A DNA stretch of 64,000 nt from an uncultured Clostridia bacterium (GCA_934778125.1 CAKVOF010000001.1:18429-82428); one strand, 5' to 3'. Positions 15,001 through 62,454 are shown, counted from the first letter of the stretch. The notes: a model not told the origin generated them from the letters alone. Translations and numbers: made by a program.

Positions 15001-18000
15001 TGTTAGTTGAGTAAACGCACTTTGAATATTAAATTGCTTTGCTTCAATTGTTATTGCCACTTTTATTGTGTTTTCAAATATCGCATTTAAGGCTTGCACC
15101 TTTTCATCTTCAGTGATTGCCTCTATATTAGGTCCACCAGCAGTTTTATGATTAAAATAACTTGCAATATACTCTTTCAAATTATCACTAAAGTTTGCAA
15201 ACTTTTTAACTTTAAATGATATGTGAAAATTTCTTATTTTATCTGTATTAATCTCAAAAACATCATCAAACACAATTTGATATTCACTAGTGTATTCATT
15301 AGCTGGCAATTTTGGTAGGTTTAATGAGTTGTGTGAGAGTTCAATTTCAACAGCTCCCTTTTCTCCAACATTTCCCTCAGCCAAACCACCAAGCCTAATA
15401 ACCTCTGGATTTAAAGCAAACTCTATGTTGTAATTAGACCTTTCCGCCTCAAGCCTATAGCCCACAGACTCAGGATTATACAATGTTGTTTTATTAGATG
15501 AAGTATCCGATGTGATTGTTACGCTGTTTAGAGCATCTAACACCCAAACAAAAATGTTATATGTAACTTTAATTGGTGTTTTTTCGATTTTATTACCTGC
15601 ATCTAATTTATAACCACTATATTCTATATTTATCACATAAGGCTTATTAGAATCCGTTGTTAAATTTTCACCAACCGTTATTATTCCATTTTCCATGCGA
15701 ACGCTTGAAGTTTCACTAATCAATTTAACCGTACAATTGTTTGTTATATCGATATATCTATAATCCGCACCATCTTTAAAGATATTGCTAAGCGTTAATT
15801 TAAGTTTGCTATTTGGAGTAACAACTAATCCTTGAATGTAATCATAGTCAATAGTTTCACCTTCACCACAAACATCATTTTCCTTAATTAAAGAATATGT
15901 ACTTCCATCATACTCAACTTTAAAATCACTTCCTGCCTCATAATTAAACATTTTATTCCAAAGAATCATTCCGCTATTTGAATCAATATCTATTTTGCTT
16001 GGAATAATTGAATCATATGAACTTTCCTCAGCTTTATATTTAAAACCAATAGGAACAACAAGTTTTATGCCAAGTTGAATTTCGTAACCATTAATTAATT
16101 TAATTTTAACATTTTTGATTTCCGCAGTTTTTAAGTCATCATTTGGCACAACCACAATACTTGACTTTAAAACGCCACCATCTTCTTTATTAAACACTTG
16201 CAATTTGAAAAACTCATTTGAATAAACGATACCTTCATTTACATCTTCACAAACCAAAACCGATTTTAAATCGAAACCAGAAATTGTCAATAAAGTATGT
16301 GTTTCTGACAATTTCTCTAAATCAAAATCACTAATAGCCACATTTAAAAAGTAAGAAGCATCTTTTATCTTTTCCATCTCAACAATAGTGGCATTTAAGT
16401 TTGCATTACTTACCAAGTTGATTTTTATCTCTTTTCTGCATAACTCATACTGGCTATAGTTTTCTGTTAATTGCTTTTCAGGGCAAACATCAAAGTGGTA
16501 AACAATAGTTGCAGTTATATCTTTAATATTTTTCAATTGCTCATTAGTTTCAAAAGTGTGCTTTAAATAAACCACTTCATTTAAATTAAGATTTGAATAA
16601 ACAATTGATTTGTTTGCTCCATCTGTGTATGTTAAAACATCGTTTTCATTATTATTTCTAAACACTTTTAATCCAGCCACATCGCCATTCTTTTTCAACA
16701 CATCAATTGATTCAGATGAAATAATTAGCGAATATGTTGGGCTATAAATTGCACTATTATCATCGTTATCAACATTTAAAATTGGCTTAATTTCTGAGCC
16801 ATTAAGCGTGCCTATATATTGAGTAAAAACACTAATGCTTGTTAAGTCTTTGTTATTATTGATAATCATATCTTCAGGCAAAGCAACCACATTAACAGTT
16901 ACTTTAATCTCTTTATCATATAATCCGCCTAAATCTAAATTTCCAGTATTATCAAAATATTCAAATTTGAATGTTAATTCCGCTTCACCTATTTTATCTG
17001 AATTTGTTTTTATTGCCCAGGTGAAACTATTACCTTCAAGTTTATCCGCCTTAATTAATTCACTATTAGAACTTACGCAAGTTACTTTATAACTCGAACC
17101 TAAATCTGAAATAACGGCATTTGCTTTATTTCTTAAATCAAATGTTAAAGTTCTTTGCATTAAATAATTATTTGTTGTTGCGATTGGAGAAAGAATTGGA
17201 TTAACTAAAATAACATTATATTTATCAAGAGAATTCTTAGATAGTTCAAATGTGCTTGAATCTAAACTATCTTTATTCGATTTCACACCAATATTATCGG
17301 CAACCTTCACAACAGCCAATGAAAATTCAAATGGTTGAGAATAATCAGTGGTTGAATCCAAAGTGTCGTGAGCATAAACTGATTTATTTTTTGATTTAAT
17401 ATTTATTTTAACTTTTTCAAAACCTTTCGTAAGCGCATCATTAGCACAAGTAAGTTTTGTTTTTGTTGAGTCTAATGTGAAAACGCTAGTTGAATCAATT
17501 CCATTAATAGTTTCATTAACTATGCTTATCTCAAAATCCCTTTGCTCCGTTTGCATTGGATAAAACTCAAATGCACGAGCTAGAATTTCATTTGAAGCGA
17601 AATCTATAGTTTGACCTTGAGCGATTGCAACTTTGCTTGATTCAAATTTTATTCTTTTCACTTCAACTAGTGATTTAAATGTAACTGATTTATATAAACT
17701 AGTTGGGCCCTCTTTTGGTTTGATCGTGAAAGTCCCCTTTCCGACCATATCTGTTGGGGTGATTGTTATTTTATTTAGCCCCAAAGCTTTATCGTATTCA
17801 ACTGTGAATGTTGCATAAGCATTGTTTTGAATCGGCTGAATTTCCTTGCTAACCGATTTCCCAACCCCAGAGATTTTAACCCAAATCACTGTTGGGATAG
17901 CTTCACCCGTTCCAGCTGGCGAACCAACACTCAACTCCTCATTTAAGTTTAATTCGTTTTTGCATTCAACATCGGTAAAAACAACCATAGTCATTTTAGA

Positions 18001-18084: not shown

Positions 18085-18132
18085 TCTCCTTTGCTCTAAA
18101 TATATTATTAAACAATTATATAATAATTATTT

Positions 18133-18606: not shown

Positions 18607-19479
18607 ATGAAAACAAAAAAAGATATAAAATTTATAGTCAATAAAGTATTAACGTGCTTCTCAGAAGCATTGTTTTACTTTGCGGTAATGCTTTCTCCGT
18701 TTATAGCATATGGATACATTCATAAAACTCCAGTAACTTTATTTGGCGCGAATGTTTCAGTCGTAACAACAGGAAGTATGATAAATAGTGGATTCAATAT
18801 TGGCGACACCCTTATTCTGAGGCGAATAAACCCACACAACATCAAAGTTGGCGATGCTATTGCTTTTTATTATGAAGCTAGTGAAATCCCAAATAGAAAC
18901 GAATTGCAAACATATGTGAGCGTGAAAACTGTTCCTAATAACCTTTCATTTAATGAAATGTTTGGCATTAATAATAAGTATTTTCTTGAAGCAAGCAAGA
19001 AGAATCGTTTCGTTTGCTTTCACCAAGTTGTAAACATCTATATTGATAAAAATGGTGAACTATGGTTTGAAACTTGGGGCACGAGCAACGTTGATAATGA
19101 AGGAAACAAGTATTATGATAAAAAACTAACCAACGAAAACTATGTGGTAGGCAAATATTCTAGAAGGCCATATCTCATTTGGATTATAACATCTCTCGCT
19201 TTAAAGTTTGGTCTTAAAAACGTTTTGATTTGCGTTTGCACTGTTGTATTCATATCAATTATAATTAGATACTCATTAGTTTTTAGAAAATTATATTTAT
19301 CAAATAAATTATACAAACGAGAGCTTTCCATAACAAATAAAGTTTTCACCCCAAAATTCTTTTTGGAAACCTCTTTAAAAGATAGAGCAAAGTTACTTTC
19401 ATCAGCCAAACCAAACGAACTTATAATTTATAAAGAAAAGTTGTTTAATAGTAAATATATCAATTATTATAAATCATAA
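18607..19479 (+). CDS. Signal peptidase I, SipW/ER-archaeal type (S26B-like), with a C-terminal TM segment and tail
   Basis: There is an N-terminal TM anchor, then VVTTGSM (the catalytic Ser context of S26 peptidases). The motif GDTLILRR...VGDAIAFY follows, and FHQVV resembles the conserved His box of SipW-type enzymes. A second TM lies near residue 200. This is a motif-level call only. Confidence 0.6.
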   Translation: MKTKKDIKFIVNKVLTCFSEALFYFAVMLSPFIAYGYIHKTPVTLFGANVSVVTTGSMINSGFNIGDTLILRRINPHNIKVGDAIAFYYEASEIPNRNELQTYVSVKTVPNNLSFNEMFGINNKYFLEASKKNRFVCFHQVVNIYIDKNGELWFETWGTSNVDNEGNKYYDKKLTNENYVVGKYSRRPYLIWIITSLALKFGLKNVLICVCTVVFISIIIRYSLVFRKLYLSNKLYKRELSITNKVFTPKFFLETSLKDRAKLLSSAKPNELIIYKEKLFNSKYINYYKS

Positions 19480-46679: not shown

Positions 46680-47216
46680 TTAACTTGAAAGTTGCTTTGC
46701 AAATTTTAATGCAAAATTTATACTTTGCGCCATAAAATACGCCATCTTCAAAATGGAATTAATCCCTATATTGTTAATAAAATTATAGTCTTTCATTCCC
46801 ACATTCCCAACAACTCCAATAAGTGAAATATCGCCCATAATTTTAAGTTTTTTATTAAAAAACCCCGCTGGAATAACCCCACAATTTTGCATTTTCACGC
46901 AAAACATTTCTTGAGAATAAGATAGCGTTGCATCAACCACAATAATCTTAGAATTTGGGTGCTTTAACTTGATATATTCATATGCACTTTCCACATTTTT
47001 AGAGTTAATAGGGTTCGATAATGTGCCATACACAAACGCATTCACTTTAAACTTTTTTATTAAATACTCGCTCACAATTGGTGCCAATGCATCACCAACA
47101 ACCCTATCGCTCCCAACACACATAAACACAGGAATCTCTTTTTCATTTCTCAACTCATAGGCTAAATCCAAGCCCATTTTCAAACTTAACTCGTGTTTTT
47201 CAGAATTATAAATCAT
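46680..47216 (-). CDS. YyaC-like (DUF1256, GPR-related) putative protease
   Basis: The segment VFMCVGSDRVVGDALAPIV matches the signature region of the YyaC family, as I recall it. Confidence 0.6.
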   Translation of the reverse strand: MIYNSEKHELSLKMGLDLAYELRNEKEIPVFMCVGSDRVVGDALAPIVSEYLIKKFKVNAFVYGTLSNPINSKNVESAYEYIKLKHPNSKIIVVDATLSYSQEMFCVKMQNCGVIPAGFFNKKLKIMGDISLIGVVGNVGMKDYNFINNIGINSILKMAYFMAQSINFALKFAKQLSS

Positions 47217-50738: not shown

Positions 50739-51455
50739 TCAAATCCCAAAAAGTTTATTTGCCCAAAACGAAAACTTGCTAGTTCCATAAGGCACAATTA
50801 TTTGCACTTTCCCTTGAATAGCACTTTTATCAACTGCGCCAAACTTTCTGCAATCCTCACTCACCAAGCGATTATCTCCCATACAAAAATAGGCGTTTTT
50901 AGGCACAACATACTCATAAAAATCATCACTTTCATCTGGCGTACCGTTATCGTTTTTAACAACAGTGCCCTCAACATAATTTTCGCCACCAAGCATAATT
51001 TTTTCCAGTTCATTGCCAGTTTTAGTTAGTTCATCGTGCCTTTTAAGTTCCTCTTTAATATAGTTTTCCTGTTGCAATTCACCATTAATAAACAACTCAC
51101 ATACACCCGTTACATCATTATATTCATAACGAATCCTATCTCCGCCAACCGCAATAACTCGCTTAATCAAACCCCTACCATTAACTTTCAAAACAACGAT
51201 ATCACCTTTTTTAATTTCAGCGAATCTATTCACATACACAACATCACTTTTATTTCCACCCTTTGCATTTAGAGTTGGTTGCATACTCGTTCCATCAACT
51301 TCCGCATCAAAAAAAACAATTGAAAACACAACGTATGAAAGCATAATCAAAAGAATAATAATATAAAGGGTGTTTGCCACCGCTTTATACCAACCATTTC
51401 TTTGCTTCTTATTAAATTGAAAATCTTCGCTAAAATTAAAAATTGGCTTATTCAT
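50739..51455 (-). CDS. lepB: Signal peptidase I (bacterial Ser-Lys type)
   Basis: GTSMQPTL (catalytic Ser box), a Lys box, and GDNRLVSEDCRKFG. The ATG at 51455 is preferred, because the track's start at 51494 is a TTG lying upstream of a TGtATAAT -10 element. Confidence 0.85.
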   Translation of the reverse strand: MNKPIFNFSEDFQFNKKQRNGWYKAVANTLYIIILLIMLSYVVFSIVFFDAEVDGTSMQPTLNAKGGNKSDVVYVNRFAEIKKGDIVVLKVNGRGLIKRVIAVGGDRIRYEYNDVTGVCELFINGELQQENYIKEELKRHDELTKTGNELEKIMLGGENYVEGTVVKNDNGTPDESDDFYEYVVPKNAYFCMGDNRLVSEDCRKFGAVDKSAIQGKVQIIVPYGTSKFSFWANKLFGI

Positions 51456-51633
51456 ATTTTTTTCCAATACTATTATACACTTCTTCAACGCCAATTAAAA
51501 CTGTTTTTATTAATAACCAACCTAATATTCCATATTTTATTTCACTTTTTGGTGAAATTGTGTATAATGAAATTGCTAACTTAAAATCACGGTTCTTGCA
51601 TAAGAGGGTTTTACCTATCATTAATCTTTATCA

Positions 51634-52331: not shown

Positions 52332-54353
52332 ATGATAGAATGCGAATGTAAAATGATTAATATAAATTATAAAAGAAAAGCAAAACTTTTTTCTATAATA
52401 TGCTTAATTATTATGCTTTTATTGTGTTTTGATGCATTCAAGAAGCATAATACTATTTTTTCAAACACATTATTAAACGCAACCACTTTAAACACAATGA
52501 GTGTTGATGAAATTGCGAACCAAGAAAAATATAATAGTTGTGATTTCGATATTGTAACCCCCACTCTTGATCAAGGAGACACAAATATTTGTTGGGCTTA
52601 TGCAACTGCAAGTGCATCGGAAACATCAATTTTAAAAGATAAGTTAGATAACAACACAAAAGACACTTTAAGATTTTCTCCAACACAAATTGCATATAGA
52701 ACCCACAACAGAGATAAAGACCCTCTTAACAACACCGTAGGGGTTTATGATAACAACAAATGGAATGAACCAGGAAACCCATTCAACACATTTTTGATGT
52801 TGTCGCAATGGTGTGCCCCAGTGGCTGGCAATGTGCATATGATGGCTAATGCATATGAAAATAACTTATATAGATTACTAGATGCCGAACAGATAAACGC
52901 ATATGAAACTGGCACATATAGAATAAACGAAATCAAGCGAGCAATTGCAAAATATGGCGCTGTAACTGGTTCGTATAACAATGCACGAAATGCGTTTTAT
53001 TACAACACAAAAGGAGAGCCAAACCCAAACGGTATTCCTCACGCGATAAGTATTGTTGGTTGGGACAACACAATTCCCGCAAGTAATTTTCAGCCAAAAC
53101 CCGCAAGCCAAAACGGTGGTTGGATAATTAAAAACAGTTATAATTCTCTTCCTTATTTTTACCTTTCTTATGATAGCCATATTGGAAATGTTTTCGGATT
53201 TAAATATGCCAAAAAATCAGAGTTCGACTTTAATTATTTTTACGATAACGTTAATGATCCTATACCTCAACACGAAACCGTTTCTAAATGTGTTTCAAAC
53301 GTTTTTGTGGCAAAGAAAGGCAACAATGATCATAACGAATTTGTTAAGGCTGTTAATGTGGCAACTATTGGATATAATCTAACCTGCAAAGTTCAAGTCT
53401 ACACCAATCTAACCGACCCAAAAAATCCCGAAAGTGGAACACTTTCCGCTTTGGGCGAACGAGTTTTGAATTATGGTGGATACCACACAATTATGCTAGA
53501 TAATCTTGCTAAAATTGATAAAGACTCATATTATTCCGTTATTGTGAGTGTTAGTAGCTCAAGTGGAGGAAGTGCAACCATTTTATATTCAAAAAACAAA
53601 AACCAAAACACTCATTATAAATCTTCAAGCGGTTGGAATAGCACGGGTTATGCTGGAAGAATAAAAGCCTACACCGTTTTGCAAGAAAAAGGAGAACCTG
53701 AGCAAAAAATAGATATATCTTCTGCCGAACACAGCATTATTTCTCCGATGCTATTTACCGGTCAAGAACTTTGCCCACAAGTAAACATAACGCTAAATTC
53801 ACAAACCTTAACTAAAGATGTGGACTACACTGTTTCCTACAAAAACAATATCAATGTTGGCACCGCTGAAATTATAATAAGTGGGATTGGAAAACACTTT
53901 GGAAGTTTAAATTTGCAATTTCAAATTTTGCCAATTGATGTGCCTATTAAACCCAATAATGAAATTAATGTTTCAAGCACCATATCAACCCTATCTGAAA
54001 TTGTTTTGCCTGAAGGTTGGCAATGGGAAAATCCGAATTTGCTAGTTATAAATATAACTAGCGCAACCGCAATTTATGTGGGCGAAAATAAAGATAATTA
54101 TAAAAACACCAAAGTGCAAATATCTTTGCAAAAAGAAGAACCTAGCAATCCTAATCCCAATAATCCCAGCCCCGATAATCCAAATGACAACAACACTCCA
54201 AATGACAACAACAATGATAATAATAAACCAAGCAACAAAGCCCCAAACAAACCAGATGTTATTCCTATAATAATTATATTTTTCGGTGTTATTGGAGCAA
54301 CATCTATCACAATAATCGTAGTTATAAAAAAAATCAAACAAAAAAGAAAATAA
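52332..54353 (+). CDS. Papain-like (C1 family) cysteine peptidase with an N-terminal signal/anchor, Ig-like region, Pro/Asn-rich linker and C-terminal TM anchor
   Basis: The catalytic Cys context is QGDTNICWAYA, the His context is PHAISIVGWDN, and the Asn/Trp context is GGWIIKNSY. The C-terminus is PNPNNPSPDNPNDNN... followed by a hydrophobic helix and KKIKQKRK. The start may instead be the ATG at 52353. Confidence 0.75.
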   Translation: MIECECKMININYKRKAKLFSIICLIIMLLLCFDAFKKHNTIFSNTLLNATTLNTMSVDEIANQEKYNSCDFDIVTPTLDQGDTNICWAYATASASETSILKDKLDNNTKDTLRFSPTQIAYRTHNRDKDPLNNTVGVYDNNKWNEPGNPFNTFLMLSQWCAPVAGNVHMMANAYENNLYRLLDAEQINAYETGTYRINEIKRAIAKYGAVTGSYNNARNAFYYNTKGEPNPNGIPHAISIVGWDNTIPASNFQPKPASQNGGWIIKNSYNSLPYFYLSYDSHIGNVFGFKYAKKSEFDFNYFYDNVNDPIPQHETVSKCVSNVFVAKKGNNDHNEFVKAVNVATIGYNLTCKVQVYTNLTDPKNPESGTLSALGERVLNYGGYHTIMLDNLAKIDKDSYYSVIVSVSSSSGGSATILYSKNKNQNTHYKSSSGWNSTGYAGRIKAYTVLQEKGEPEQKIDISSAEHSIISPMLFTGQELCPQVNITLNSQTLTKDVDYTVSYKNNINVGTAEIIISGIGKHFGSLNLQFQILPIDVPIKPNNEINVSSTISTLSEIVLPEGWQWENPNLLVINITSATAIYVGENKDNYKNTKVQISLQKEEPSNPNPNNPSPDNPNDNNTPNDNNNDNNKPSNKAPNKPDVIPIIIIFFGVIGATSITIIVVIKKIKQKRK

Positions 54354-56419: not shown

Positions 56420-56497
56420 AGCATTAAATTTATCTTTACATCATAAAACAATCTATTCAAACAAAAAAGTTTCATAAATTTATGAAACTTTTTATTT

Positions 56498-57271
56498 TTA
56501 GGTTATAGTCACCTCAAAAGTAACTTCTATTTCACCGCCAACTTCCAATGCACCAACTTCAAAACCAACCGTTGGATCGAACCCTTCATCGCTCAGTGCT
56601 TTGTTGATTCTAACGCTTTTAGGCACAAAAACCGTTCCTTGAGGTATTTCATCTTTAAAAAACACGCTAGTATTTCTTATTTTCCCTGTGTTTTTGATAA
56701 TACTTTGATACATAAGTGTATCTCCGCTAATAACAACTGTTTTATTCGATGTTTTATCAATAACGAGTTTATTTTCGGTTATTTTAACCACCACTTCAGG
56801 TGTGAACTCACTCATATCTTCAACTTCATTTGCATTAAAGGTGACTTTTGTTTTTAGAGCAACACTTGTTGCAGAAGTTTGCTCATCAATCACCAACACA
56901 TACGACACAACTGCACCACTCTTTGGCTGAAACGAGTTTGGCAATGTTATTCCAGCAACAATATCCATATCAGGGAATGGCACGTTATCTATCTCAACCG
57001 AGCCAGGTTTAAAACTAGCACCCTCGCCAATAATTTCCTCAAGCCTAATATTCGTGATTTCCGACAAGCTTTCGTTTGCCAGTAAAATACTTTGCAATAT
57101 TTCATCTTTAGGCGCTCCATAATCCAACAACGAAGATTTATCTTTAACAAACGCCACCGATAAATTTTCCACAACACTTTCGTTGCTTTCAAATGTTATT
57201 GTTTGAGTGGTTTGGTCAGGTGCGGTGTAATTAGCTCGAACCTGAGATTTGTTTTTTATTGTTTTTTCCAT
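56498..57271 (-). CDS. DUF11 (conserved repeat domain) protein, no signal peptide
   Basis: The C-terminal LMYQSIIKNTGKIRNTSVFFKDEIPQGTVFVPKSVRINK...ALEVGGEIEVTFEVTIT has the typical DUF11 pattern. The RBS is AAGGTGA. The gene lies 47 nt downstream of the collagen-like gene. Confidence 0.65.
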   Translation of the reverse strand: MEKTIKNKSQVRANYTAPDQTTQTITFESNESVVENLSVAFVKDKSSLLDYGAPKDEILQSILLANESLSEITNIRLEEIIGEGASFKPGSVEIDNVPFPDMDIVAGITLPNSFQPKSGAVVSYVLVIDEQTSATSVALKTKVTFNANEVEDMSEFTPEVVVKITENKLVIDKTSNKTVVISGDTLMYQSIIKNTGKIRNTSVFFKDEIPQGTVFVPKSVRINKALSDEGFDPTVGFEVGALEVGGEIEVTFEVTIT

Positions 57272-57318
57272 TTTTCACCTTAAAATTTTATATAATATTA
57301 TTAAACACAACCAACAAC

Positions 57319-59145
57319 TTATGCAATTTGCACAACGGTTAACATAGCGCTTGGTGCTCCAGAACTCGTTAGTGTTCGATTGCTCGATAGTGTTGGAACA
57401 AGCGTGATCACATCGTTTGCTTTCAACCTTAACACAATTGTGCAACTCACATTCGTGCTGGTGGTTAATGGGCGTTTTGTTCCACCAACCAACGTGTTGT
57501 TTGAATATATTCCCACACAATCACCCGCAGTTGCGCTCGATCCATTATTGATTGAAAAACTCACTATATATGTTCCAGTATACTGAATTGTGATAGAAGC
57601 ATTATTAATGCTCATTCCGTTGTTTGTTAGCGTTGTGCCAAACGTTAATGGCCTACCATTCGCAATTTCTTGAGAGTTTTCTTCGTATATCGTTGCATTA
57701 ATATTGTTAGTTGTTCCAGGAGGGCCTGCCACCCCTTGTTCCCCTTTCACTCCTTGCGGGCCTCTATCGCCTTGCGGGCCTTTTTCACCTGGATCACCCT
57801 TTTCCCCCGTTTTACCTTTTGGAATCTGAAAATCTAAAAAATGCACATCGTTTTCATATCTATCTTCAACTTTTGCAGGTTCATTTTCCCCAACTAAAGT
57901 TGTTGTTCCCGCCATTATTATTTCATCACCTTTTTCTCCACGTTCGCCTTTCTCTCCTTTTTCACCTTTGGGAATATAAAACGATAGGTGATGAATATAG
58001 TTTTCAAAATTATCTAACACTTGCGCATCTTCTTCTGGGTTGATAGTTTCAGTTAGGTCTATCGATATTCCTTCACTTCTTCCTATCTCGCCCGGCAATC
58101 CTCTTGGCCCCGTTTCACCCGTTTCCCCTTTCTCACCTTTTGGTATGCTGAAAGTTAGATGATGCGTTGTTCCATCAAAATTATCTTCCACAACCGCATT
58201 TTCATTAGGATTTGTTGTTTGGGTGGCATCAACAACTATTTTTTCACCCACGCCCGTTTCACCTTTTTCACCCGGATCACCTTTGCTTCCTTGAACGCCT
58301 TGAATTCCTTGAGCACCCGTTTCACCCTTTGCACCCGTTTTTCCCCTTGGAATCTGGAAATCTAAAAAATGCACATCGTTTTCATACCTATCTTCAACTT
58401 TTGCAGGTTCATTTTCCCCAACTAAAGTTGTTGTTCCCGCCATTATTACTTCATCACCTTTCTCTCCACGTTCGCCCTTCTCTCCTTTTTCACCTTTGGG
58501 AATATAAAATGTAAGAAAATGAGTGTTATTTTCAAAATTATCTTGAACATTCGCATTTTCGCTTGGCTCTATTGTGTGAGTTTTATCAATAATTATTGTT
58601 TCACTACGCCCATCTTTTCCCGGCTCGCCTTTTTCACCCGGCTCACCTTTATTTCCTTGAACGCCTTGAATACCTTGAGCGCCCGTTTCACCCTTTGCTC
58701 CCGTTTTCCCCCTTGGAATATAAAAATCGAAAAAATGCACATCGCCTTCATATCTATCTTCAACTTTTGCCACGTTGTTAGGTTCAATAGTGTTGGTTTT
58801 GCCCACTAATATTTTTTCTGGCACACCATTATATCCTCTTGGAATCTCAAATTCTAAATAGGTTGTGTTTTCAATGTGTGTTGATTTAACGTTCGCTTCC
58901 TTTTCTGGTGGAAGCGTTTTTGTTGATTTAACAACAAGATTTTCACCGCTTGGGCCTCTATCACCTTTCGGCCCCGTTGCGCCCGTTGCTCCAGTTACCC
59001 CAATTGCTCCAGTTGCGCCCGTTGCCCCAGTTGCGCCCGTTGCCCCAGTTGCTCCTCTTAGCCCCCTTGGGCCGTGCTTTATATTTTCATAACACACCCG
59101 CTTTGATGATAATTTTTGATTTAAATATCTACACCAAAATTTCAT
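57319..59145 (-). CDS. Modular collagen-like protein with a BclA/C1q-like C-terminal domain
   Basis: The protein opens with a (GAT)n tract. Seven modules of about 36 aa follow (x-I-x-V-x-x-T-x-T...V-x-D-x-[YF]-E...H-[FH]-L-x-F-x-I-P-[KR]-G), alternating with GXY runs. The C-terminal roughly 135 aa end in APSAMLTVVQIA, which resembles the BclA C-terminal domain. The RBS is AGGAGA. Confidence 0.85.
   Translation of the reverse strand: MKFWCRYLNQKLSSKRVCYENIKHGPRGLRGATGATGATGATGATGAIGVTGATGATGPKGDRGPSGENLVVKSTKTLPPEKEANVKSTHIENTTYLEFEIPRGYNGVPEKILVGKTNTIEPNNVAKVEDRYEGDVHFFDFYIPRGKTGAKGETGAQGIQGVQGNKGEPGEKGEPGKDGRSETIIIDKTHTIEPSENANVQDNFENNTHFLTFYIPKGEKGEKGERGEKGDEVIMAGTTTLVGENEPAKVEDRYENDVHFLDFQIPRGKTGAKGETGAQGIQGVQGSKGDPGEKGETGVGEKIVVDATQTTNPNENAVVEDNFDGTTHHLTFSIPKGEKGETGETGPRGLPGEIGRSEGISIDLTETINPEEDAQVLDNFENYIHHLSFYIPKGEKGEKGERGEKGDEIIMAGTTTLVGENEPAKVEDRYENDVHFLDFQIPKGKTGEKGDPGEKGPQGDRGPQGVKGEQGVAGPPGTTNNINATIYEENSQEIANGRPLTFGTTLTNNGMSINNASITIQYTGTYIVSFSINNGSSATAGDCVGIYSNNTLVGGTKRPLTTSTNVSCTIVLRLKANDVITLVPTLSSNRTLTSSGAPSAMLTVVQIA
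57821..58509. repeat. Intragenic near-identical repeats of about 160 bp, 528 bp apart
   Basis: By hand alignment, 57821-57980 and 58349-58509 differ at 5 positions. Confidence 0.85.
58970..59060. repeat. Imperfect 9-bp tandem tract encoding (Gly-Ala-Thr)n
   Basis: The tract encodes GATGATGATGATGATGAIGVTGATGATG. Confidence 0.8.
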
Positions 59146-59367
59146 AAATTCTCCTATTTTTCGCCTATACTTATTATATAAATATTTTATAAATTTTGTT
59201 CATTTATACCTATTTAAACAACAAGTTACATTATCAATTGGAGTAAGCTTGTTTGGAACATATTGAAAATAAAAAAGACATATTAGTGTTACTAATCTAT
59301 TAGATTAATCCAATAATACGTCTTTAATTTTAGATTTTTCTTAAAATAACATATCTTTTTATTATAA

Positions 59368-62300
59368 TTAAACAATTTTTCCAGAAACATATAATCTAAT
59401 ATTATTTGCTAAAGTACCATCTTCATTAAATAATTTCGATAAGCCATTAGAATGATTAAAATTGCCTTTTGCTGGAGTTGTTTTTCCAGGATCTACAAAT
59501 ACATCACTAATTTCATATTTTTCACCATTTGGTGATTCGTTCATTATTTTTCCCAATAATTTAACAACATAATCTTTACTTTCATCATCAAAACCACCAA
59601 CCAATTTTGCATATATTTCAGGAATGTTTTTAATCTTAATAAGGAAATGGCCCTTCTCATCAACTTCATAATCTAAATAATATGAGTATGAAGAATTTCC
59701 TATATTATCATCGGTTATATTTATCGATTCACCTTTGAAATTTTCTAAAGATTTGCCTCCCACTTCATTTGTGCCTAGGTCAAAGATTAAAGTATATTGT
59801 TGCTGATCAGAACTTTGTTCTCTTTGCGCAAAATAAATATCTGTGTTTGAACTTGGCCATGCAACAAAAGGTTTTGTTAATGTTTCATCAATAAAAATTC
59901 CAGAGAAATAATTATAATTAACCCCCTCATACATTTCTGTTAGCGATTTAAATAATTCGCTAAACGAGTAACCCTCTGGGCAAGATTTTGGAATTGTGAT
60001 TGTGTGTGTTATTTTTTGAATAGTGTTGCTTGAATTTGAATAATCTAGGTTATGAATATTAATGATTAGTCCTTCATCATAAACCGCTTCAAATTTTATA
60101 TTAGATGAAACACCACTAGTAATTTGACATGTTTTAGTTAAAACGGTATCGGCTCCGCCAACTAATTTCCAGCCTTTGAAAATATATCCACTTTTTTCAA
60201 CACTTTCTGGTAAATTAATCAAGGTGTTTCCTTCCTTAACTAGTTCGTTTCCTACTAACTTTCCACCTTTAGTGTCGTACTCAGCAATATAAAGTTTCGT
60301 GTATTTCGCATATAAGGTACGCTCTTCCCCAAGGTAAACAGATTCAACATCTATTTTATTTTCAATTTTAAAATCCGCATCTGAATAGAATCCCTCAAAT
60401 AGATAGCCTTTTTTATAAGGGTATCCATTCTCGCTAATGTTATCCGCAAGCTTAATAAATTTATATTCAAAGCTTTCCATTGTTCCACCATTTAATTCAA
60501 ATGTGATTTTTGGAAGGCTAACATACTTAGCATAAAGTTCCATAACATTCCCCGTTTTTGAAACAGTTAACTTGTCATCAACGAATGCTGGAACTTTAAA
60601 CTCACGATCTAAATACCAGTTTTCAATTTTATTATTTTTTATAATTTTATCTGAAATTGCGTTGTCAAAGTCAGTTTTCGAAATAGTTGAACCAGCTTTG
60701 ATATATTGATTATTTATCTTTTCTAGTGTAAAGTCTTCTCCAATGTTGCAAGCCTTAATTTTAATGCTTTCATTATTTTTTAAGCTTATATCTTTATGTT
60801 CCGAAAATTCTGGATAAACAAAGTTAGATGTATCTTTATTAAACTCAATTGAGTATACCATTTTCTCGTATGTGTAATCAGTAGAGTATTCATTCTCTGT
60901 ATCTTGATTCGTTAGTAAAAAGTTATCTTCTAACTTCCAAAAAACATTAACACTTGTCAATTTTTGGTTTGAAAAATTTATCTCGACTTTTTGATTGACC
61001 AATGGGTTATTTATTATATGCGACCTTGCTTCACTATTTATATAAACCCTATTATATTCATATTCTTCCAATAAGATTGTTTGTTCAATGATTGCTGTGT
61101 AGTTTTCTTTAGTTGCATTTTCAGCCATTCTAAATGAAAATTTATAAGTTCCCTCACCATAAAGAGAATTTATTTTATCTATATCTTTTTGATTAGCATT
61201 TAGTAATTCTTGAATTATATCAGCACTTGATAAATTAAGCAAATTTTGAACCTCTAAACTATACGCTTCATATTCTTGCTTACTCAATTCAACCTTTGTT
61301 TTCTCCAAGCATTCCCATGATGAACTATAAAATAAGCTAGGAGTTCCAGAATTTAAATTTAGCACAACGTTTAATAAATAATACTTTCCGTTATCTTCAA
61401 TTAAATAAGAGCATGTTACTCCTTCATAGCTATCGGGATTAATTGAGCCATATTTACTAATCATTTGATTTTCAATTTTTTCATTAAAATCATCACATAA
61501 ACAATAATCCGGGTTATCCTCACTGCTAGCCTTAACTTTTATTTTATCAGTGTTTACATCAACTGAAATATCATAATAGTAGAAATTTTCAAAACCTTGA
61601 ACTTTTTCACTATTGCTTTTATTTAATAAATCAACTAATATTTTATCAATTTCAACATCGCTTTTTTCATAAGATATTGTTGCTATGCGATAATCACCAC
61701 TTGATTGTGACTTACAAGTGAAAAAAACTTCTTTTGAATTGCTAGCCTTATAATAATCATATGTTATTTTATAATATTCTTCAGTGCCATTAGTATAAAC
61801 CGATTCGCAAATTAAATCATTCTTCACTTGCCTTTTTCCATTTTCTGAATTTGAAGTTAAAAACCAGTTCTTTTGAGCTTTGGTGAGTTTTTTTCCCTTG
61901 TTATATGTCGTCAGTCCTGATACTCCACTTGATGTAGATACATGATACCACTCTCCTTTATCATTATCATAACACAAATAAGTTTCAAAATCTGTTAAAG
62001 AATTAAAATCATCGGCATTTTTAATCAATCCATTATTTATTCCGCCAGTTGAAGTTGACCTAAAGTCGACACTTCCTATCTCATCTTCTGGATCAGCTTT
62101 AAGCACTTGTTTTGCATAGTAATAATTACCATTTTCATCTTTATAAACATATAGTTTTAGTTCCCTGATAAAGAAGTACTTACTCTTATCAATATTATCG
62201 AGTACTGCAATAACTTTTTTGCCATTAATTAATTTCGATACCGCTTCCTGTTTATATTCATCAGATCCAAATAAAATACTATCCATCCCTTTAGATGTTT

Positions 62301-62454
62301 CATCTGCTAGAACTTTTTGTATGTCCGCTAATGTATATTCTGATGGATTAATTTCAGGCTCCTTTGGCTTTGATTTTCCACAAGAGTTAAGCATAAATAA
62401 GCAAGGAATGATCAGCACAATGGCCAAAAATAAACTAATAATCTTCCTTTTCAT
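59368..62454 (-). CDS. Large surface lipoprotein (1,028 aa) with Listeria-Bacteroides (InlB B / Flg_new-type) repeats
   Basis: The signal peptide carries the lipobox LNSCG. The contexts GYLFEGFYSD and GYIFKGWKL are typical of Flg_new repeats. The RBS is AAGGAG. Confidence 0.8.
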   Translation of the reverse strand: MKRKIISLFLAIVLIIPCLFMLNSCGKSKPKEPEINPSEYTLADIQKVLADETSKGMDSILFGSDEYKQEAVSKLINGKKVIAVLDNIDKSKYFFIRELKLYVYKDENGNYYYAKQVLKADPEDEIGSVDFRSTSTGGINNGLIKNADDFNSLTDFETYLCYDNDKGEWYHVSTSSGVSGLTTYNKGKKLTKAQKNWFLTSNSENGKRQVKNDLICESVYTNGTEEYYKITYDYYKASNSKEVFFTCKSQSSGDYRIATISYEKSDVEIDKILVDLLNKSNSEKVQGFENFYYYDISVDVNTDKIKVKASSEDNPDYCLCDDFNEKIENQMISKYGSINPDSYEGVTCSYLIEDNGKYYLLNVVLNLNSGTPSLFYSSSWECLEKTKVELSKQEYEAYSLEVQNLLNLSSADIIQELLNANQKDIDKINSLYGEGTYKFSFRMAENATKENYTAIIEQTILLEEYEYNRVYINSEARSHIINNPLVNQKVEINFSNQKLTSVNVFWKLEDNFLLTNQDTENEYSTDYTYEKMVYSIEFNKDTSNFVYPEFSEHKDISLKNNESIKIKACNIGEDFTLEKINNQYIKAGSTISKTDFDNAISDKIIKNNKIENWYLDREFKVPAFVDDKLTVSKTGNVMELYAKYVSLPKITFELNGGTMESFEYKFIKLADNISENGYPYKKGYLFEGFYSDADFKIENKIDVESVYLGEERTLYAKYTKLYIAEYDTKGGKLVGNELVKEGNTLINLPESVEKSGYIFKGWKLVGGADTVLTKTCQITSGVSSNIKFEAVYDEGLIINIHNLDYSNSSNTIQKITHTITIPKSCPEGYSFSELFKSLTEMYEGVNYNYFSGIFIDETLTKPFVAWPSSNTDIYFAQREQSSDQQQYTLIFDLGTNEVGGKSLENFKGESINITDDNIGNSSYSYYLDYEVDEKGHFLIKIKNIPEIYAKLVGGFDDESKDYVVKLLGKIMNESPNGEKYEISDVFVDPGKTTPAKGNFNHSNGLSKLFNEDGTLANNIRLYVSGKIV

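What the first reader, a model, noticed from the sequence alone, without database searches (positions are those of the whole stretch)
56498..59145. Beads-on-a-string collagen protein with a BclA/C1q-like head, paired with a DUF11 protein, neither with a signal peptide
The 608-aa protein alternates seven globular modules of about 36 aa (consensus ..I.V..T.T..P.E.A.V.D.[FY]E...H.L.F.IP[KR]G) with GXY collagen runs of 4-14 triplets. It ends in a domain of about 135 aa whose layout and C-terminus (…SSGAPSAMLTVVQIA) resemble the TNF/C1q-like BclA head of Bacillus and Clostridioides exosporium filaments. Similar heads occur on some phage fibres.

The usual BclA-type architecture is one uninterrupted collagen stalk. 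Regularly interrupted stalks with repeated knobs are unusual.

A DUF11 protein follows 47 nt downstream. Neither protein has a recognisable secretion signal, which would fit assembly from the inside (spore or exosporium-like layers) or phage-like export. A YyaC-like gene (46680-47216) hints at sporulation ancestry, but no other spore genes are visible here.
Basis: partly seen in the sequence, partly recalled or inferred. Interest (0 to 1): 0.6.

Follow-up and report, generated by a model that had tools for sequence, protein, structure and literature searches.

The report
Knobbed collagen spore-filament gene pair
An uncultured gut Clostridia bacterium carries a two-gene operon for a long collagen-like filament with seven small knobs and a BclA-type head, plus a small two-domain partner protein, and it most likely builds hair-like fibres on the spore surface.

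Summary
Window 59145-57319(-) encodes a 608-aa protein: a 24-aa Cys-containing N-terminus, seven GXY runs (5-15 triplets), seven 34-36-aa modules and a 129-aa head. After a 47-nt spacer, 57271-56498(-) encodes a 257-aa DUF11/CLIPPER protein. Neither has a signal peptide. Terminator-like hairpins on both sides isolate the pair as one operon.

The modelled head best matches B. anthracis BclA-CTD (TM about 0.8) and F-BclA-CTD. All 25 family heads match Pfam BclA_C.

The interrupted stalk is the norm for a family of about 30 clusters and 21 loci in gut Clostridia MAGs, which carry 2-5 modules. The window reached seven through a 528-nt internal duplication. The module has no Pfam family or solved structure, but it recurs in phage-fibre-like proteins.

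The DUF11 gene neighbours the collagen gene in eight or more loci, in three arrangements. No phage genes or phage homologues were found. Relatives sit next to SpoIIE and YetF genes, and the window has YyaC.

Closest precedents are the L-BclA/Ena3A pair and the P29/GP85 spore-appendage fibrils of Clostridium taeniosporum. The spore location is inferred, not shown. I rate it a new variant of a known kind, of moderate interest.

The parts
59262..59335 (-). AT-rich hairpin plus U-run that ends the upstream lipoprotein gene and isolates the operon at its 5' side
   Evidence: Fold energy -18.2 kcal/mol, z = -5.6 against shuffles, followed by UUUUUUAUUUU. The consensus scan missed it because the stem is AT-rich.
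59173..59202 (-). Promoter-like site TGAACA-18-TATAAT upstream of the collagen gene
   Evidence: It matches 10 of 12 positions of the sigma-70 consensus. Upstream regions of orthologues split between TTnACA-N17-TATAATG and AC-N17-CATAnnn motifs, so the sigma factor cannot be assigned.
57319..59145 (-). Gene for the 608-aa module-interrupted collagen-like protein with a BclA/C1q-type head
   Evidence: ORF and AGGAG ribosome-binding site; Pfam Collagen and BclA_C; architecture.
59074..59145 (-). N-terminal 24-aa basic peptide with Cys5 and Cys18 (MKFWCRYLNQKLSSKRVCYENIKH), a putative anchoring connector
   Evidence: No signal peptide and no exosporium-leader hit. In the family, 19 of 21 N-termini have at least 2 Cys and 8 of 21 have a CC motif, with Cys density about 7 times that of control N-termini. 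The KRVCYExIK motif is shared with P0014/L025.
58939..59073 (-). First GXY run (15 triplets, mostly GAT/GPx)
   Evidence: 9/18-nt tandem repeat at 58971-59052.
58711..58938 (-). Double module (aa 70-145): two 34-36-aa modules joined by YNGVPE, the most conserved stalk element of the family
   Evidence: A [76]-aa or split element is present in all 21 orthologous loci. phmmer finds 179 representative clusters with this module. It has no Pfam family and no PDB sequence match.
57709..58710 (-). Alternating GXY runs (12, 5, 11, 7, 5 and 12 triplets) and five single modules (aa 146-479), including a 528-nt internal duplication (57734-58033 and 58262-58561)
   Evidence: 82% identity over 300 nt.
57322..57708 (-). 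C-terminal 129-aa head with a BclA_C / C1q / TNF-type jelly roll
   Evidence: Pfam BclA_C 37.8 bits, E = 2e-9, covering profile positions 16-128 of 128; all 25 family heads match. Foldseek gives BclA-CTD TM about 0.8 and F-BclA-CTD TM about 0.73. The head profile hits OX40L/TNF.
57272..57318 (-). 47-nt spacer with an AGGTG ribosome-binding site and no terminator, implying co-transcription
56498..57271 (-). Gene for the 257-aa cysteine-free DUF11/CLIPPER protein: a conserved N-terminal arm (aa 1-48; 57128-57271), beta-sandwich domain 1 (aa about 49-165; 56777-57127) and a truncated CLIPPER domain 2 (aa 166-257; 56501-56776)
   Evidence: Pfam DUF11 28.1 bits (cutoff 24.6) over profile positions 2-84 of 114; TIGR01451 60 bits. 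AF2 pLDDT 79.6, with two confident beta domains and a low-confidence arm. Foldseek gives generic tandem Ig-like matches. The family has 39 clusters, nearly all 252-257 aa.
56452..56500 (-). Hairpin plus U-run terminator immediately after the DUF11 stop codon
   Evidence: Fold energy -12.5 kcal/mol, z = -4.6, followed by UUUUUUGUUU.

Best explanation
The two genes form one operon that makes a hair-like filament for the spore surface of an uncultured, anaerobic gut Clostridia bacterium.

Shown:
- The first protein has the parts of a BclA-type filament: a short N-terminal peptide, a Gly-X-Y stalk and a BclA/C1q-fold head.
- Its stalk is cut into seven collagen segments by seven 34-36-aa beta modules.
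- Its N-terminus is a basic, Cys-containing peptide, not a signal peptide and not a Bacillus exosporium leader.
- The second protein is a cysteine-free tandem beta-sandwich (CLIPPER/DUF11) protein with a strongly conserved N-terminal arm.
- The two gene families are repeatedly neighbours.

Inferred:
- Both proteins are made in the mother-cell cytoplasm during sporulation, which would explain why they need no export signal.
- The head trimerises and nucleates the triple helix, and the modules act as trimeric nodes that re-register and stiffen or hinge the stalk. With 201 residues in GXY at about 0.28 nm per residue, plus seven knobs and the head, the filament would be roughly 70-80 nm long.
- The Cys-rich N-terminus fixes the filament base by disulfides to Cys-rich coat or exosporium proteins, or to the other chains of the trimer. 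It cannot bond to the partner, which has no Cys.
- The CLIPPER protein is the companion subunit or adaptor of the fibril. This parallels P29 with the collagen-like GP85 in C. taeniosporum appendages, or Ena3A with L-BclA.
- The exposed, swappable head mediates adhesion or spore-spore contacts.
For: - Architecture and operon structure.
- Head: the best structural matches are BclA-CTD (TM about 0.8) and F-BclA-CTD; 25 of 25 heads hit BclA_C.
- Family: the same layout is found in 21 loci of gut Clostridia MAGs and about 30 representative clusters. 19 of 21 N-termini have at least 2 Cys and 8 of 21 have CC. Published L-BclA and the candidate S-ENA ruffle are likewise collagen plus a C1q head plus a CC-containing N-terminal connector, without an exosporium leader (PMC11362473; PMC12357932).
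- Linkage: the DUF11-family gene is adjacent in the window, L004-6, L012, L013, L016, L018, L028 and L031, arranged downstream, upstream or divergent, including members only about 39% identical. It is the most frequent recurrent neighbour in 10-kb flanks.
- Sporulation context: YyaC is in the window. SpoIIE lies 1.6 kb upstream of the gene in L014 and next to the cluster in L031. YetF/DUF421 genes, which encode spore inner-membrane proteins in Bacillus (PMC12548441, abstract), are adjacent in L010, L024, L028 and L031. A GT2 glycosyltransferase is adjacent in L021.
- Precedent: C. taeniosporum spore appendage fibrils are made of 269-aa two-repeat DUF11 proteins (P29a/b) and collagen-like GP85/CL2, encoded as adjacent pairs with larger DUF11 paralogues nearby (PMC5749712). 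L029 and L030 show such larger paralogues. The clostridial F-Anchor-3 contains DUF11 domains.
- Stalk length varies between near-identical strains (L012 424 aa, L013 311 aa), as is known for BclA.
Against: - No experiment or expression data place either protein on a spore.
- The window promoter looks sigma-A-like (TGAACA-18-TATAAT), and upstream motifs across orthologues are ambiguous.
- The DUF11 gene is absent within 10 kb of the collagen gene in about 15 of 21 loci, and L001 has the DUF11 gene without a collagen gene, so the partnership is not obligatory.
- The partner has no Cys, so the disulfide docking used by L-BclA/Ena3A cannot apply to this pair.
- Its fold matches are generic Ig-like, not Ena or F-ENA.
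- Homology to P29/GP85 could not be tested, and no 269-aa protein appeared in the profile search.
- The modules could not be modelled (pLDDT about 27-42).
- Whole-genome sporulation capacity of the window organism was not checked; only YyaC is visible.
- The MAG taxonomic labels (Christensenella, Catabacter) include groups whose cultured members are described as non-sporulating; this last point rests on my own knowledge.
Confidence: 0.55

Rival explanations
1. This is a vegetative cell-surface or matrix fibre. The pair would build an adhesive fibril on growing cells or in a biofilm matrix, released by a non-classical route or by lysis, with no link to sporulation.
For: - The window has a sigma-A-like promoter, as do several orthologues.
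- CLIPPER domains are typical of fibrillar adhesin stalks on cell surfaces (PMC12617251).
- The window is rich in surface proteins.
- Many loci have no sporulation gene nearby.
Against: - Neither family has a signal peptide, LPXTG motif or other anchor in about 21 collagen and 45 DUF11 sequences, while neighbouring surface proteins in the same window do have signals.
- The closest structural and architectural relatives of the head and N-terminus are all spore filaments.
- SpoIIE, YetF and YyaC are neighbours.
Confidence: 0.18
2. This is a phage or tailocin fibre remnant. The collagen protein would be a domesticated or decaying tail fibre and the DUF11 protein its assembly or adaptor partner.
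For: - The 36-aa module is shared, at a distance, with long multi-module proteins, one of which carries Pfam Phage_fiber_2.
- PHROG tail-fibre profiles hit the protein, mainly through collagen.
- Collagen plus C1q-type heads are common in viral proteins.
- Phage structural proteins also lack signal peptides.
- Heads are swapped between family members.
Against: - No phage gene lies in the 64-kb window or in the flanks of about 25 related loci, which are housekeeping regions at varied positions.
- tblastn of the head and of the double module finds nothing in 50,697 phage genomes.
- Pattern scans of IMG/VR find no relative of the head or of the DUF11 protein.
- The DUF11 protein has no PHROG hit.
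- Head-only viral matches are structurally weaker (TM 0.5-0.66) than BclA (about 0.8).
Confidence: 0.07
3. The two genes are neighbours without working together: a BclA-like filament gene and an unrelated small CLIPPER protein gene that happen to be co-transcribed here.
For: - About 15 of 21 collagen loci lack the DUF11 gene within 10 kb.
- L001 has the DUF11 gene alone.
- L029 and L030 pair it with multi-CLIPPER proteins instead.
- No shared Cys chemistry is possible.
Against: - Adjacency recurs in eight or more loci, across members down to about 39% identity and in three different orientations, which is hard to explain by shared ancestry of one arrangement.
- It is the most frequent recurrent neighbour.
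- L015 keeps a remnant of the gene beside the collagen gene.
- In the window the operon is tight: a 47-nt spacer with no terminator, and terminators on both flanks.
- The same kind of pairing is proven for C. taeniosporum appendage fibrils.
Confidence: 0.12

Closest known systems
BclA of Bacillus anthracis/cereus (exosporium hairy-nap filament; PDB 1WCK, 2R6Q)
   Same: The layout is an N-terminal attachment peptide, then a GXY collagen stalk, then a C-terminal C1q/TNF-fold trimerising head. It has no signal peptide. The head is the best structural match (TM about 0.8) and matches Pfam BclA_C. Stalk length is polymorphic.
   Different: The stalk is interrupted seven times by 34-36-aa modules. 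No exosporium leader (TIGR03720) is detected; a Cys-containing basic peptide takes its place. Head identity to BclA is only about 16%. The host is an uncultured anaerobic gut Clostridia bacterium.
L-BclA / Ena3A (l-bclA-ena3A bicistron, L-ENA of B. paranthracis) and the candidate S-ENA ruffle AGE80398.1
   Same: A collagen-like protein with a C1q head and a Cys-containing N-terminal connector, without an exosporium leader. Its gene lies immediately upstream of, and is co-transcribed with, a small beta-sandwich structural protein (PMC11362473; PMC12357932).
   Different: The partner is a two-domain CLIPPER/DUF11 protein, not an Ena-core (DUF3992) jellyroll, and it has no cysteine, so disulfide docking to it is impossible. 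The window protein has two separated Cys rather than a CC motif; 8 of 21 relatives have CC.
Clostridium taeniosporum spore appendage fibrils: P29a/P29b with GP85/CL2
   Same: A protein of about 29 kDa built of two DUF11-containing repeats is encoded next to, and in the same direction as, a collagen-like protein. Larger DUF11 paralogues (CRD1 and CRD2, 413-564 aa) lie nearby, as in L029 and L030. These are proven spore-appendage components (PMC5749712).
   Different: In the published gene order P29 precedes the collagen gene, whereas here the collagen gene comes first; relatives show both orders. According to the paper the fibril head is formed by P29, whereas here the collagen protein carries its own C1q-type head and knobs.
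F-BclA (tip fibrillum of F-ENA, B. thuringiensis; PDB 9H38)
   Same: It is the second-best structural match for the head (TM about 0.73, 22-24% identity). It is a collagen-like tip filament of a spore appendage whose N-terminus mimics the subunit-subunit docking element.
   Different: No DUF4183 (F-ENA) gene is seen nearby. The N-terminus is unrelated. The stalk is interrupted.
CLIPPER (DUF11, PF01345) domain of fibrillar adhesins (PDB 9IFR)
   Same: Domain 2 of the partner matches PF01345 and TIGR01451 above their cutoffs. The Lys and the acidic residue at the positions of the isopeptide Lys715 and catalytic Asp748 are present and co-vary (PMC12617251).
   Different: The domain ends at profile position 84 of 114, before the Asn-bearing strand. 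The protein has no signal peptide and is a stand-alone 257-aa protein rather than a long tandem stalk. 9IFR was not among the top Foldseek matches.
Collagen-containing phage or viral fibre proteins with repeated 'ATIxVGxVTTGxPGSxAxVTNxGTxxxAVFDFxIPxG' modules
   Same: The same 36-aa module type is placed between GXY runs, with 6-25 copies per protein. Some carry C1q-like heads.
   Different: Similarity is remote (about 30-35% identity over the module). Those proteins have other termini, for example Phage_fiber_2. The window family is chromosomal, is absent from phage collections, and has its own three module subtypes.

Membership tests
BclA-type collagen-like spore filament | C-terminal BclA_C / C1q-TNF-fold trimerisation head | tested here: met
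   Pfam BclA_C E = 2e-9 and 37.8 bits (cutoff 38) over profile positions 16-128 of 128; 25 of 25 family heads match. Foldseek to 1wck, 2r6q and 3twi gives TM 0.79-0.81 and rmsd 2.4-2.7 A. The model's head pLDDT is only 57-80.
BclA-type collagen-like spore filament | Central GXY collagen-like region | tested here: met
   67 triplets in seven runs; Pfam Collagen 100 bits. Unlike BclA, the region is interrupted by seven modules.
BclA-type collagen-like spore filament | N-terminal exosporium leader peptide (TIGR03720) that docks to ExsFA/BxpB | tested here: not met
   No NCBIfam hit at E <= 0.01. The N-terminus is MKFWCRYLNQKLSSKRVCYENIKH. L004, L012 and L013 have '...INLPPIGQQG', which only loosely recalls the leader.
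BclA-type collagen-like spore filament | Located on the spore surface; expressed in the mother cell; glycosylated | not testable with these tools
   Only context is available: YyaC, SpoIIE, YetF and GT2 neighbours in relatives, and an ambiguous promoter.
L-BclA-type ENA tip fibrillum ('ruffle') | Cys-rich N-terminal connector with a CC motif and no exosporium leader | tested here: inconclusive
   The window protein has Cys5 and Cys18 but no CC. In the family, 19 of 21 N-termini have at least 2 Cys and 8 of 21 have CC.
L-BclA-type ENA tip fibrillum ('ruffle') | Encoded with an Ena-core (DUF3992) fibre subunit that offers Cys for disulfide docking | tested here: not met
   The partner is DUF11/CLIPPER, has 0 Cys, and has no Ena or F-ENA structure among its Foldseek matches.
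C. taeniosporum P29/GP85-type appendage fibril pair | A protein of about 29 kDa with two DUF11-containing internal repeats | tested here: met
   257 aa with two beta-sandwich domains (AF2 pLDDT 79.6). PF01345 matches domain 2, and PF24346 (CLIPPER_2) is precomputed for domain 1 in several family members.
C. taeniosporum P29/GP85-type appendage fibril pair | Adjacent, co-oriented collagen-like protein gene | tested here: met
   47-nt spacer on the same strand, bounded by terminators; recurs in eight or more loci.
C. taeniosporum P29/GP85-type appendage fibril pair | Sequence homology to P29a/b and GP85/CL2 | not testable with these tools
No 269-aa hit appeared in the profile search of 5.8 billion proteins.
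CLIPPER (DUF11, PF01345) isopeptide domain | Profile match above the curated cutoff | tested here: met
   PF01345 28.1 bits (cutoff 24.6); TIGR01451 60 bits (cutoff 24).
CLIPPER (DUF11, PF01345) isopeptide domain | Intramolecular Lys-Asn isopeptide with a catalytic Asp (Lys715/Asn806/Asp748 in 9IFR) | tested here: not met
   K173 and D207 are present at the right spacing and co-vary: 38 of 38 sequences with K keep D, and 5 of 7 without K also lack D. However, the protein ends about 7 residues before the Asn position; the profile match covers only positions 2-84 of 114. No in-cis partner was identified.
Phage tail fibre | Encoded within a phage structural module, with relatives in phage genomes | tested here: not met
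   Chromosomal housekeeping context. No tblastn hits in 50,697 phage genomes. None in IMG/VR.

The most novel reading that the evidence does not exclude
The 257-aa CLIPPER protein may be the subunit of a new kind of endospore appendage, in addition to the described S/L-ENA, F-ENA and A-ENA classes.

Its last domain is a CLIPPER fold that lacks its final, Asn-bearing strand, yet it keeps the isopeptide Lys and catalytic Asp. Its strongly conserved N-terminal arm (M-x-K-I-x-N-x-S-x-x-T-S-K-Y-T-L-P-D) is unplaced in the monomer model.

The arm of one subunit could complete the truncated domain of the next, possibly locked by an intermolecular Lys-Asn isopeptide. That would give a covalent, cysteine-free fibre to which the knobbed collagen filament attaches as a tip or anchor.

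Intermolecular isopeptide-linked spore fibres have precedent in A-ENA (PMC13111695).
Probability: 0.1. Interest if true: 0.8.

Novelty: new variant of a known kind. Interest (0 to 1): 0.5.

Why it matters
Spore-surface filaments govern how spores stick to hosts, to surfaces and to each other. They have been worked out almost only in Bacillus and in a few cultured Clostridium species.

This locus defines a conserved, unnamed family in uncultured human-gut Clostridia that combines three elements:
- a BclA-fold head;
- a collagen stalk punctuated by a small module that has no Pfam family or solved structure, although it occurs hundreds of times, including in phage-fibre-like proteins;
- a recurrent CLIPPER-domain partner like the one in the ribbon appendages of C. 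taeniosporum.

If confirmed, it would extend the collagen-plus-DUF11 fibril design from one curiosity to a broad group of gut anaerobes. It would give a handle on spore transmission of commensals that resist cultivation. It would also offer a natural system for studying how short beta modules register and segment bacterial collagen, which is of interest for designed collagen materials.

Tried and rejected
1. PDB sequence searches with the head, the double module and the DUF11 protein found nothing significant. A 47-sequence module profile against PDB gave only chance hits.
It was repeated with the 5 closest heads.
3. AF2 could not model modules 6-7 as a monomer (pLDDT 27-42), so no fold could be assigned to the module.
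5. Promoter typing was ambiguous. The window and some orthologues look sigma-A-like and others resemble sigma-K or sigma-E promoters, so it was not used.
6. I tested the idea that the DUF11 arm is homologous to the terminal strands of canonical CLIPPER domains, or to the collagen N-termini. An HMM of the arm hits only the family's own N-termini among 3,207 ORFs. The phi-phi-N-[KQ] motif in collagen N-termini is only weakly enriched (4/21 against 10/339; post-hoc p = 0.006). This is kept only as a low-probability lead.
7. N7 remains conserved in members that lost K173/D207, which argues against N7 being solely an isopeptide partner.
8. P29 and GP85 sequences were sought in PMC5749712 and its supplements and not found.
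9. P0040, an apparent DUF11-collagen fusion, is most likely an assembly chimera. The same organism group has separate genes in L004, L012 and L013.
10. The Pfam hit to Caud_bapl16_1st (E = 0.0015, no stretch passing on its own) was dismissed as noise.

Full report
**Observation**

The finding is real. On the minus strand, 59145-57319 encodes a 608-aa protein and 57271-56498 a 257-aa protein.

The first protein reads: a 24-aa N-terminus (MKFWCRYLNQKLSSKRVCYENIKH), 15 GXY triplets, a 76-aa double module, and then alternating GXY runs (12, 5, 11, 7, 5 and 12 triplets) and 35-36-aa modules. It ends in a 129-aa domain finishing ...SSGAPSAMLTVVQIA.

A 528-nt stretch is duplicated inside the gene at 82% identity. 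This explains how the copy reached seven modules.

Start codons are supported by AGGAG and AGGTG ribosome-binding sites. The 47-nt spacer has no terminator. AT-rich hairpins with U-runs lie just upstream of the promoter region (z = -5.6) and directly after the second stop codon (z = -4.6). The pair is therefore an isolated bicistronic unit.

Neither protein has a signal peptide. The neighbouring 1,028-aa protein and the giant ORF both start with clear lipoprotein signals.

**The head**

Pfam BclA_C matches residues 496-608 over almost the whole profile. It scores 33.5 bits in the full protein and 37.8 bits for the head alone, against a cutoff of 38.

All 25 heads of the family match BclA_C (best E = 2.4e-11). 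Six also match C1q and five match TNF. A profile of the heads hits TNF-superfamily ligands in the PDB through the 'NG..L.DN.LVVP..G.YLIS' motif.

An AF2 model of residues 358-608 is poor for the modules but moderate for the head (pLDDT 57-80, all beta). Its best PDB matches are:
- B. anthracis BclA-CTD (2r6q, 1wck, 3tyj, 3twi, 2z5w; TM 0.77-0.81, rmsd 2.4-2.7 A);
- the F-ENA tip fibrillum F-BclA-CTD (9h38; TM about 0.73, 22-24% identity);
- then C1q-like proteins, collagen X NC1, ExsFA/BxpB and TNF ligands.

**The family and the modules**

An exhaustive phmmer search with the collagen-free double module found 179 representative clusters. About 30 of them have the same full layout.

A scan of species-representative genomes found 21 loci. 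All are in uncultured gut Clostridia MAGs, with labels such as Christensenella sp. UBA7868, Catabacter sp., Oscillospiraceae and many Hadza MAGs.

Every orthologue has the same order:
- a short basic N-terminus;
- a GXY run;
- the double module;
- a GXY run;
- zero to three further modules separated by GXY runs;
- a 129-131-aa head.

The interrupted stalk is thus the norm in this family, with 2-5 modules per protein. The window holds the maximum of seven.

Close relatives differ in module and triplet number: L012 has 424 aa, L013 has 311 aa, and there is a 72-nt collagen length difference between L004 and L013. This resembles the known length polymorphism of BclA.

The same stalk carries at least three head types.

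The module itself has no Pfam family, even in proteins with 10-25 copies, and no PDB match. A more distant version (ATIxVGxVTTGxPGSxAxVTNxGTxxxAVFDFxIPxG) fills long proteins, one of which ends in Phage_fiber_2 repeats.

**The N-terminus**

No exosporium leader is detected. Instead the N-termini are basic and Cys-rich. Of 21, 19 have at least 2 Cys and 8 have a CC motif, and the Cys density is about 7 times that of control N-termini from the same loci.

Published work describes exactly this combination for L-BclA, the tip 'ruffle' of L-ENA, and for the candidate S-ENA ruffle AGE80398.1. Both have collagen, a C1q head and a CC-containing N-terminal connector, and lack an exosporium leader (PMC11362473; PMC12357932).

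**The partner**

The 257-aa protein belongs to a tight, unnamed family of 39 clusters, nearly all 252-257 aa.

AF2 (pLDDT 79.6) gives two confident beta-sandwich domains and an unplaced N-terminal 48 residues. Foldseek gives generic tandem Ig-like matches only.

Domain 2 matches DUF11/CLIPPER and TIGR01451 above their cutoffs, but only over profile positions 2-84 of 114. Almost every family member ends within one or two residues of the 'VTFxVxV' strand. That is before the strand that carries the isopeptide Asn in the solved CLIPPER domain (PMC12617251; 9IFR alignment).

The Lys (K173) and Asp (D207) at the positions of the isopeptide Lys and catalytic Asp are nevertheless conserved and co-vary. 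All 38 sequences with K keep D, and 5 of the 7 without K also lack D.

The first 19 residues are unusually conserved (N7 91%, S9 87%, Y15 82%, D19 80%), and cysteine is almost absent.

The idea that the arm supplies the missing strand, in cis or in trans, is attractive. It is not supported by an HMM test, and N7 persists where K/D are lost. I keep it only as the low-probability novel reading.

**Linkage of the two genes**

The DUF11-family gene is adjacent to a family collagen gene in the following loci:
- the window (downstream);
- L004-6, L012 and L013 (upstream);
- L016 and L028 (divergent);
- L018 and L031 (downstream).

This includes members only about 39% identical to the window protein. 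L015 retains a remnant. It is the most frequent recurrent neighbour in 10-kb flanks.

In about 15 loci it is not within 10 kb. L001 has it alone. In L029 and L030 it follows larger multi-CLIPPER proteins of 440 and 567 aa that also lack signal peptides.

The link is therefore strong but not obligatory.

**Context and rivals**

The window is ordinary chromosome. It holds five aminoacyl-tRNA synthetase genes, FtsH, signal peptidase, desulfoferrodoxin and TraX. It contains one sporulation marker, YyaC, which passes the NCBIfam equivalog cutoff.

In relatives:
- a complete SpoIIE lies 1.6 kb upstream of the collagen gene in L014 and next to the cluster in L031;
- YetF/DUF421 genes are adjacent in L010, L024, L028 and L031, and near in L021;
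- a GT2 glycosyltransferase is adjacent in L021.

YetF-family proteins are spore inner-membrane proteins in Bacillus (PMC12548441, abstract).

No phage genes occur in any locus. The head and the double module have no tblastn match in 50,697 phage genomes. Neither family is found in IMG/VR. Viral collagen-C1q proteins share the head fold, but less closely than BclA does.

**Closest precedent**

Clostridium taeniosporum spore ribbons consist of fibrils made of P29a/P29b and the collagen-like glycoprotein GP85. P29a/b are 269-aa proteins with two internal repeats that both contain DUF11. The genes are arranged as adjacent P29-collagen pairs, with larger DUF11 paralogues (CRD1 and CRD2) alongside. 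The same paper lists DUF11 spore proteins CrdA-C in the B. cereus group (PMC5749712).

The window pair has the same design.

**Conclusion**

The most likely reading (confidence about 0.55) is a mother-cell-made spore-surface filament. It would be a trimeric, BclA-headed, collagen-like stalk of roughly 70-80 nm, based on 201 GXY residues at about 0.28 nm per residue (figure taken) plus the knobs and head. The stalk would be segmented by seven beta knobs and fixed through its Cys-containing N-terminus. It would work together with a CLIPPER-domain companion subunit.

The architecture, head fold, family distribution, gene linkage, operon structure and absence of phage context are shown. Trimerisation, the role of the modules, spore localisation and the partner's function are inferred.

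It is a new variant of a known kind, not a new category.

Noticed in passing
window 1-18126 (-): A single open reading frame of more than 6,042 codons runs off the window start. Its N-terminus is a lipoprotein signal (MKMKKCLMVLLMVLISPIMFLASCGN). There is no Pfam hit in the first 1,500 aa and no strong internal repeats. It is a giant surface lipoprotein of unknown type.
   Followed up: partly
window 18607-19479 (+): A 290-aa protein with a sub-threshold match to archaeal/SipW-type signal peptidase I (TIGR02228, 45 bits against a cutoff of 51.9) is encoded divergently from the giant ORF. A second, ordinary S26 signal peptidase is at 50739-51494.
   Followed up: no
window 59368-62454 (-) and 52332-54353 (+): Two further large surface proteins flank the operon. 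One is a 1,028-aa lipoprotein with Listeria-Bacteroides repeats. The other is a 673-aa papain-like (C1) peptidase with a lectin-like domain, an Asn/Pro-rich tract and a C-terminal membrane anchor.
   Followed up: partly
L010 4491-5204; L024 8397-9083; L021 13267-13947; L028 5119-5808; L031 6231-6920: YetF/DUF421 genes, a family of spore inner-membrane proteins in Bacillus, lie beside the collagen-head gene or the DUF11-family gene in four different genomes (L010, L024, L028, L031) and three genes away in a fifth (L021). This makes them a second recurrent neighbour.
   Followed up: partly
L028 5805-6749 (-); proteins P0024, P0030, P0022, P0026, P0033: The same Cys-rich N-terminus, double module and collagen stalk carry at least three different C-terminal heads. 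One type has no Pfam match. Another is a second BclA_C-like type (33.9 bits).
   Followed up: partly
L004 9712-10576 (also L005, L006); protein P0040: In one species the collagen gene is broken by a premature stop plus a 1-nt indel relative to L013, and this is seen in three assemblies. A separate database protein (P0040, 426 aa) joins residues 1-201 of the DUF11 protein directly to module 1 of the collagen protein and is probably an assembly chimera.
   Followed up: partly
L029 5657-6979; L030 5284-6987: Proteins of 440 and 567 aa start MAFIKRYS/MPFIQRYS...GGIIFTGNTLGLSK. They have no signal peptide, a large unknown N-terminal region and one or two CLIPPER domains, and they end, like the 257-aa family, right after the 'VTFxVxV' strand. 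Each lies immediately upstream of a family member.
   Followed up: no
L031 7001-11239: One genome has an extended cluster: SpoIIE, YetF, a DUF11-family gene, a 75-aa Cys-containing ORF, an RsgI_M-domain lipoprotein, a collagen-BclA_C gene (306 aa) and a second, shorter CLIPPER protein (242 aa) that lacks the conserved arm.
   Followed up: partly
L001 10001-10804: The public gene call for P0010 (267 aa) reads through a TGA stop that ends the protein at 260 aa under table 11. This suggests the contig was annotated with a TGA-recoding table. A stretch of about 1.8 kb with no ORF of 60 aa or more precedes the gene, downstream of smpB.
   Followed up: no
window 22299-43165: An unusual concentration of five aminoacyl-tRNA synthetase genes lies within about 21 kb: Ala, Cys, one class II enzyme with an HGTP anticodon domain, Tyr and Ile.
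   Followed up: no
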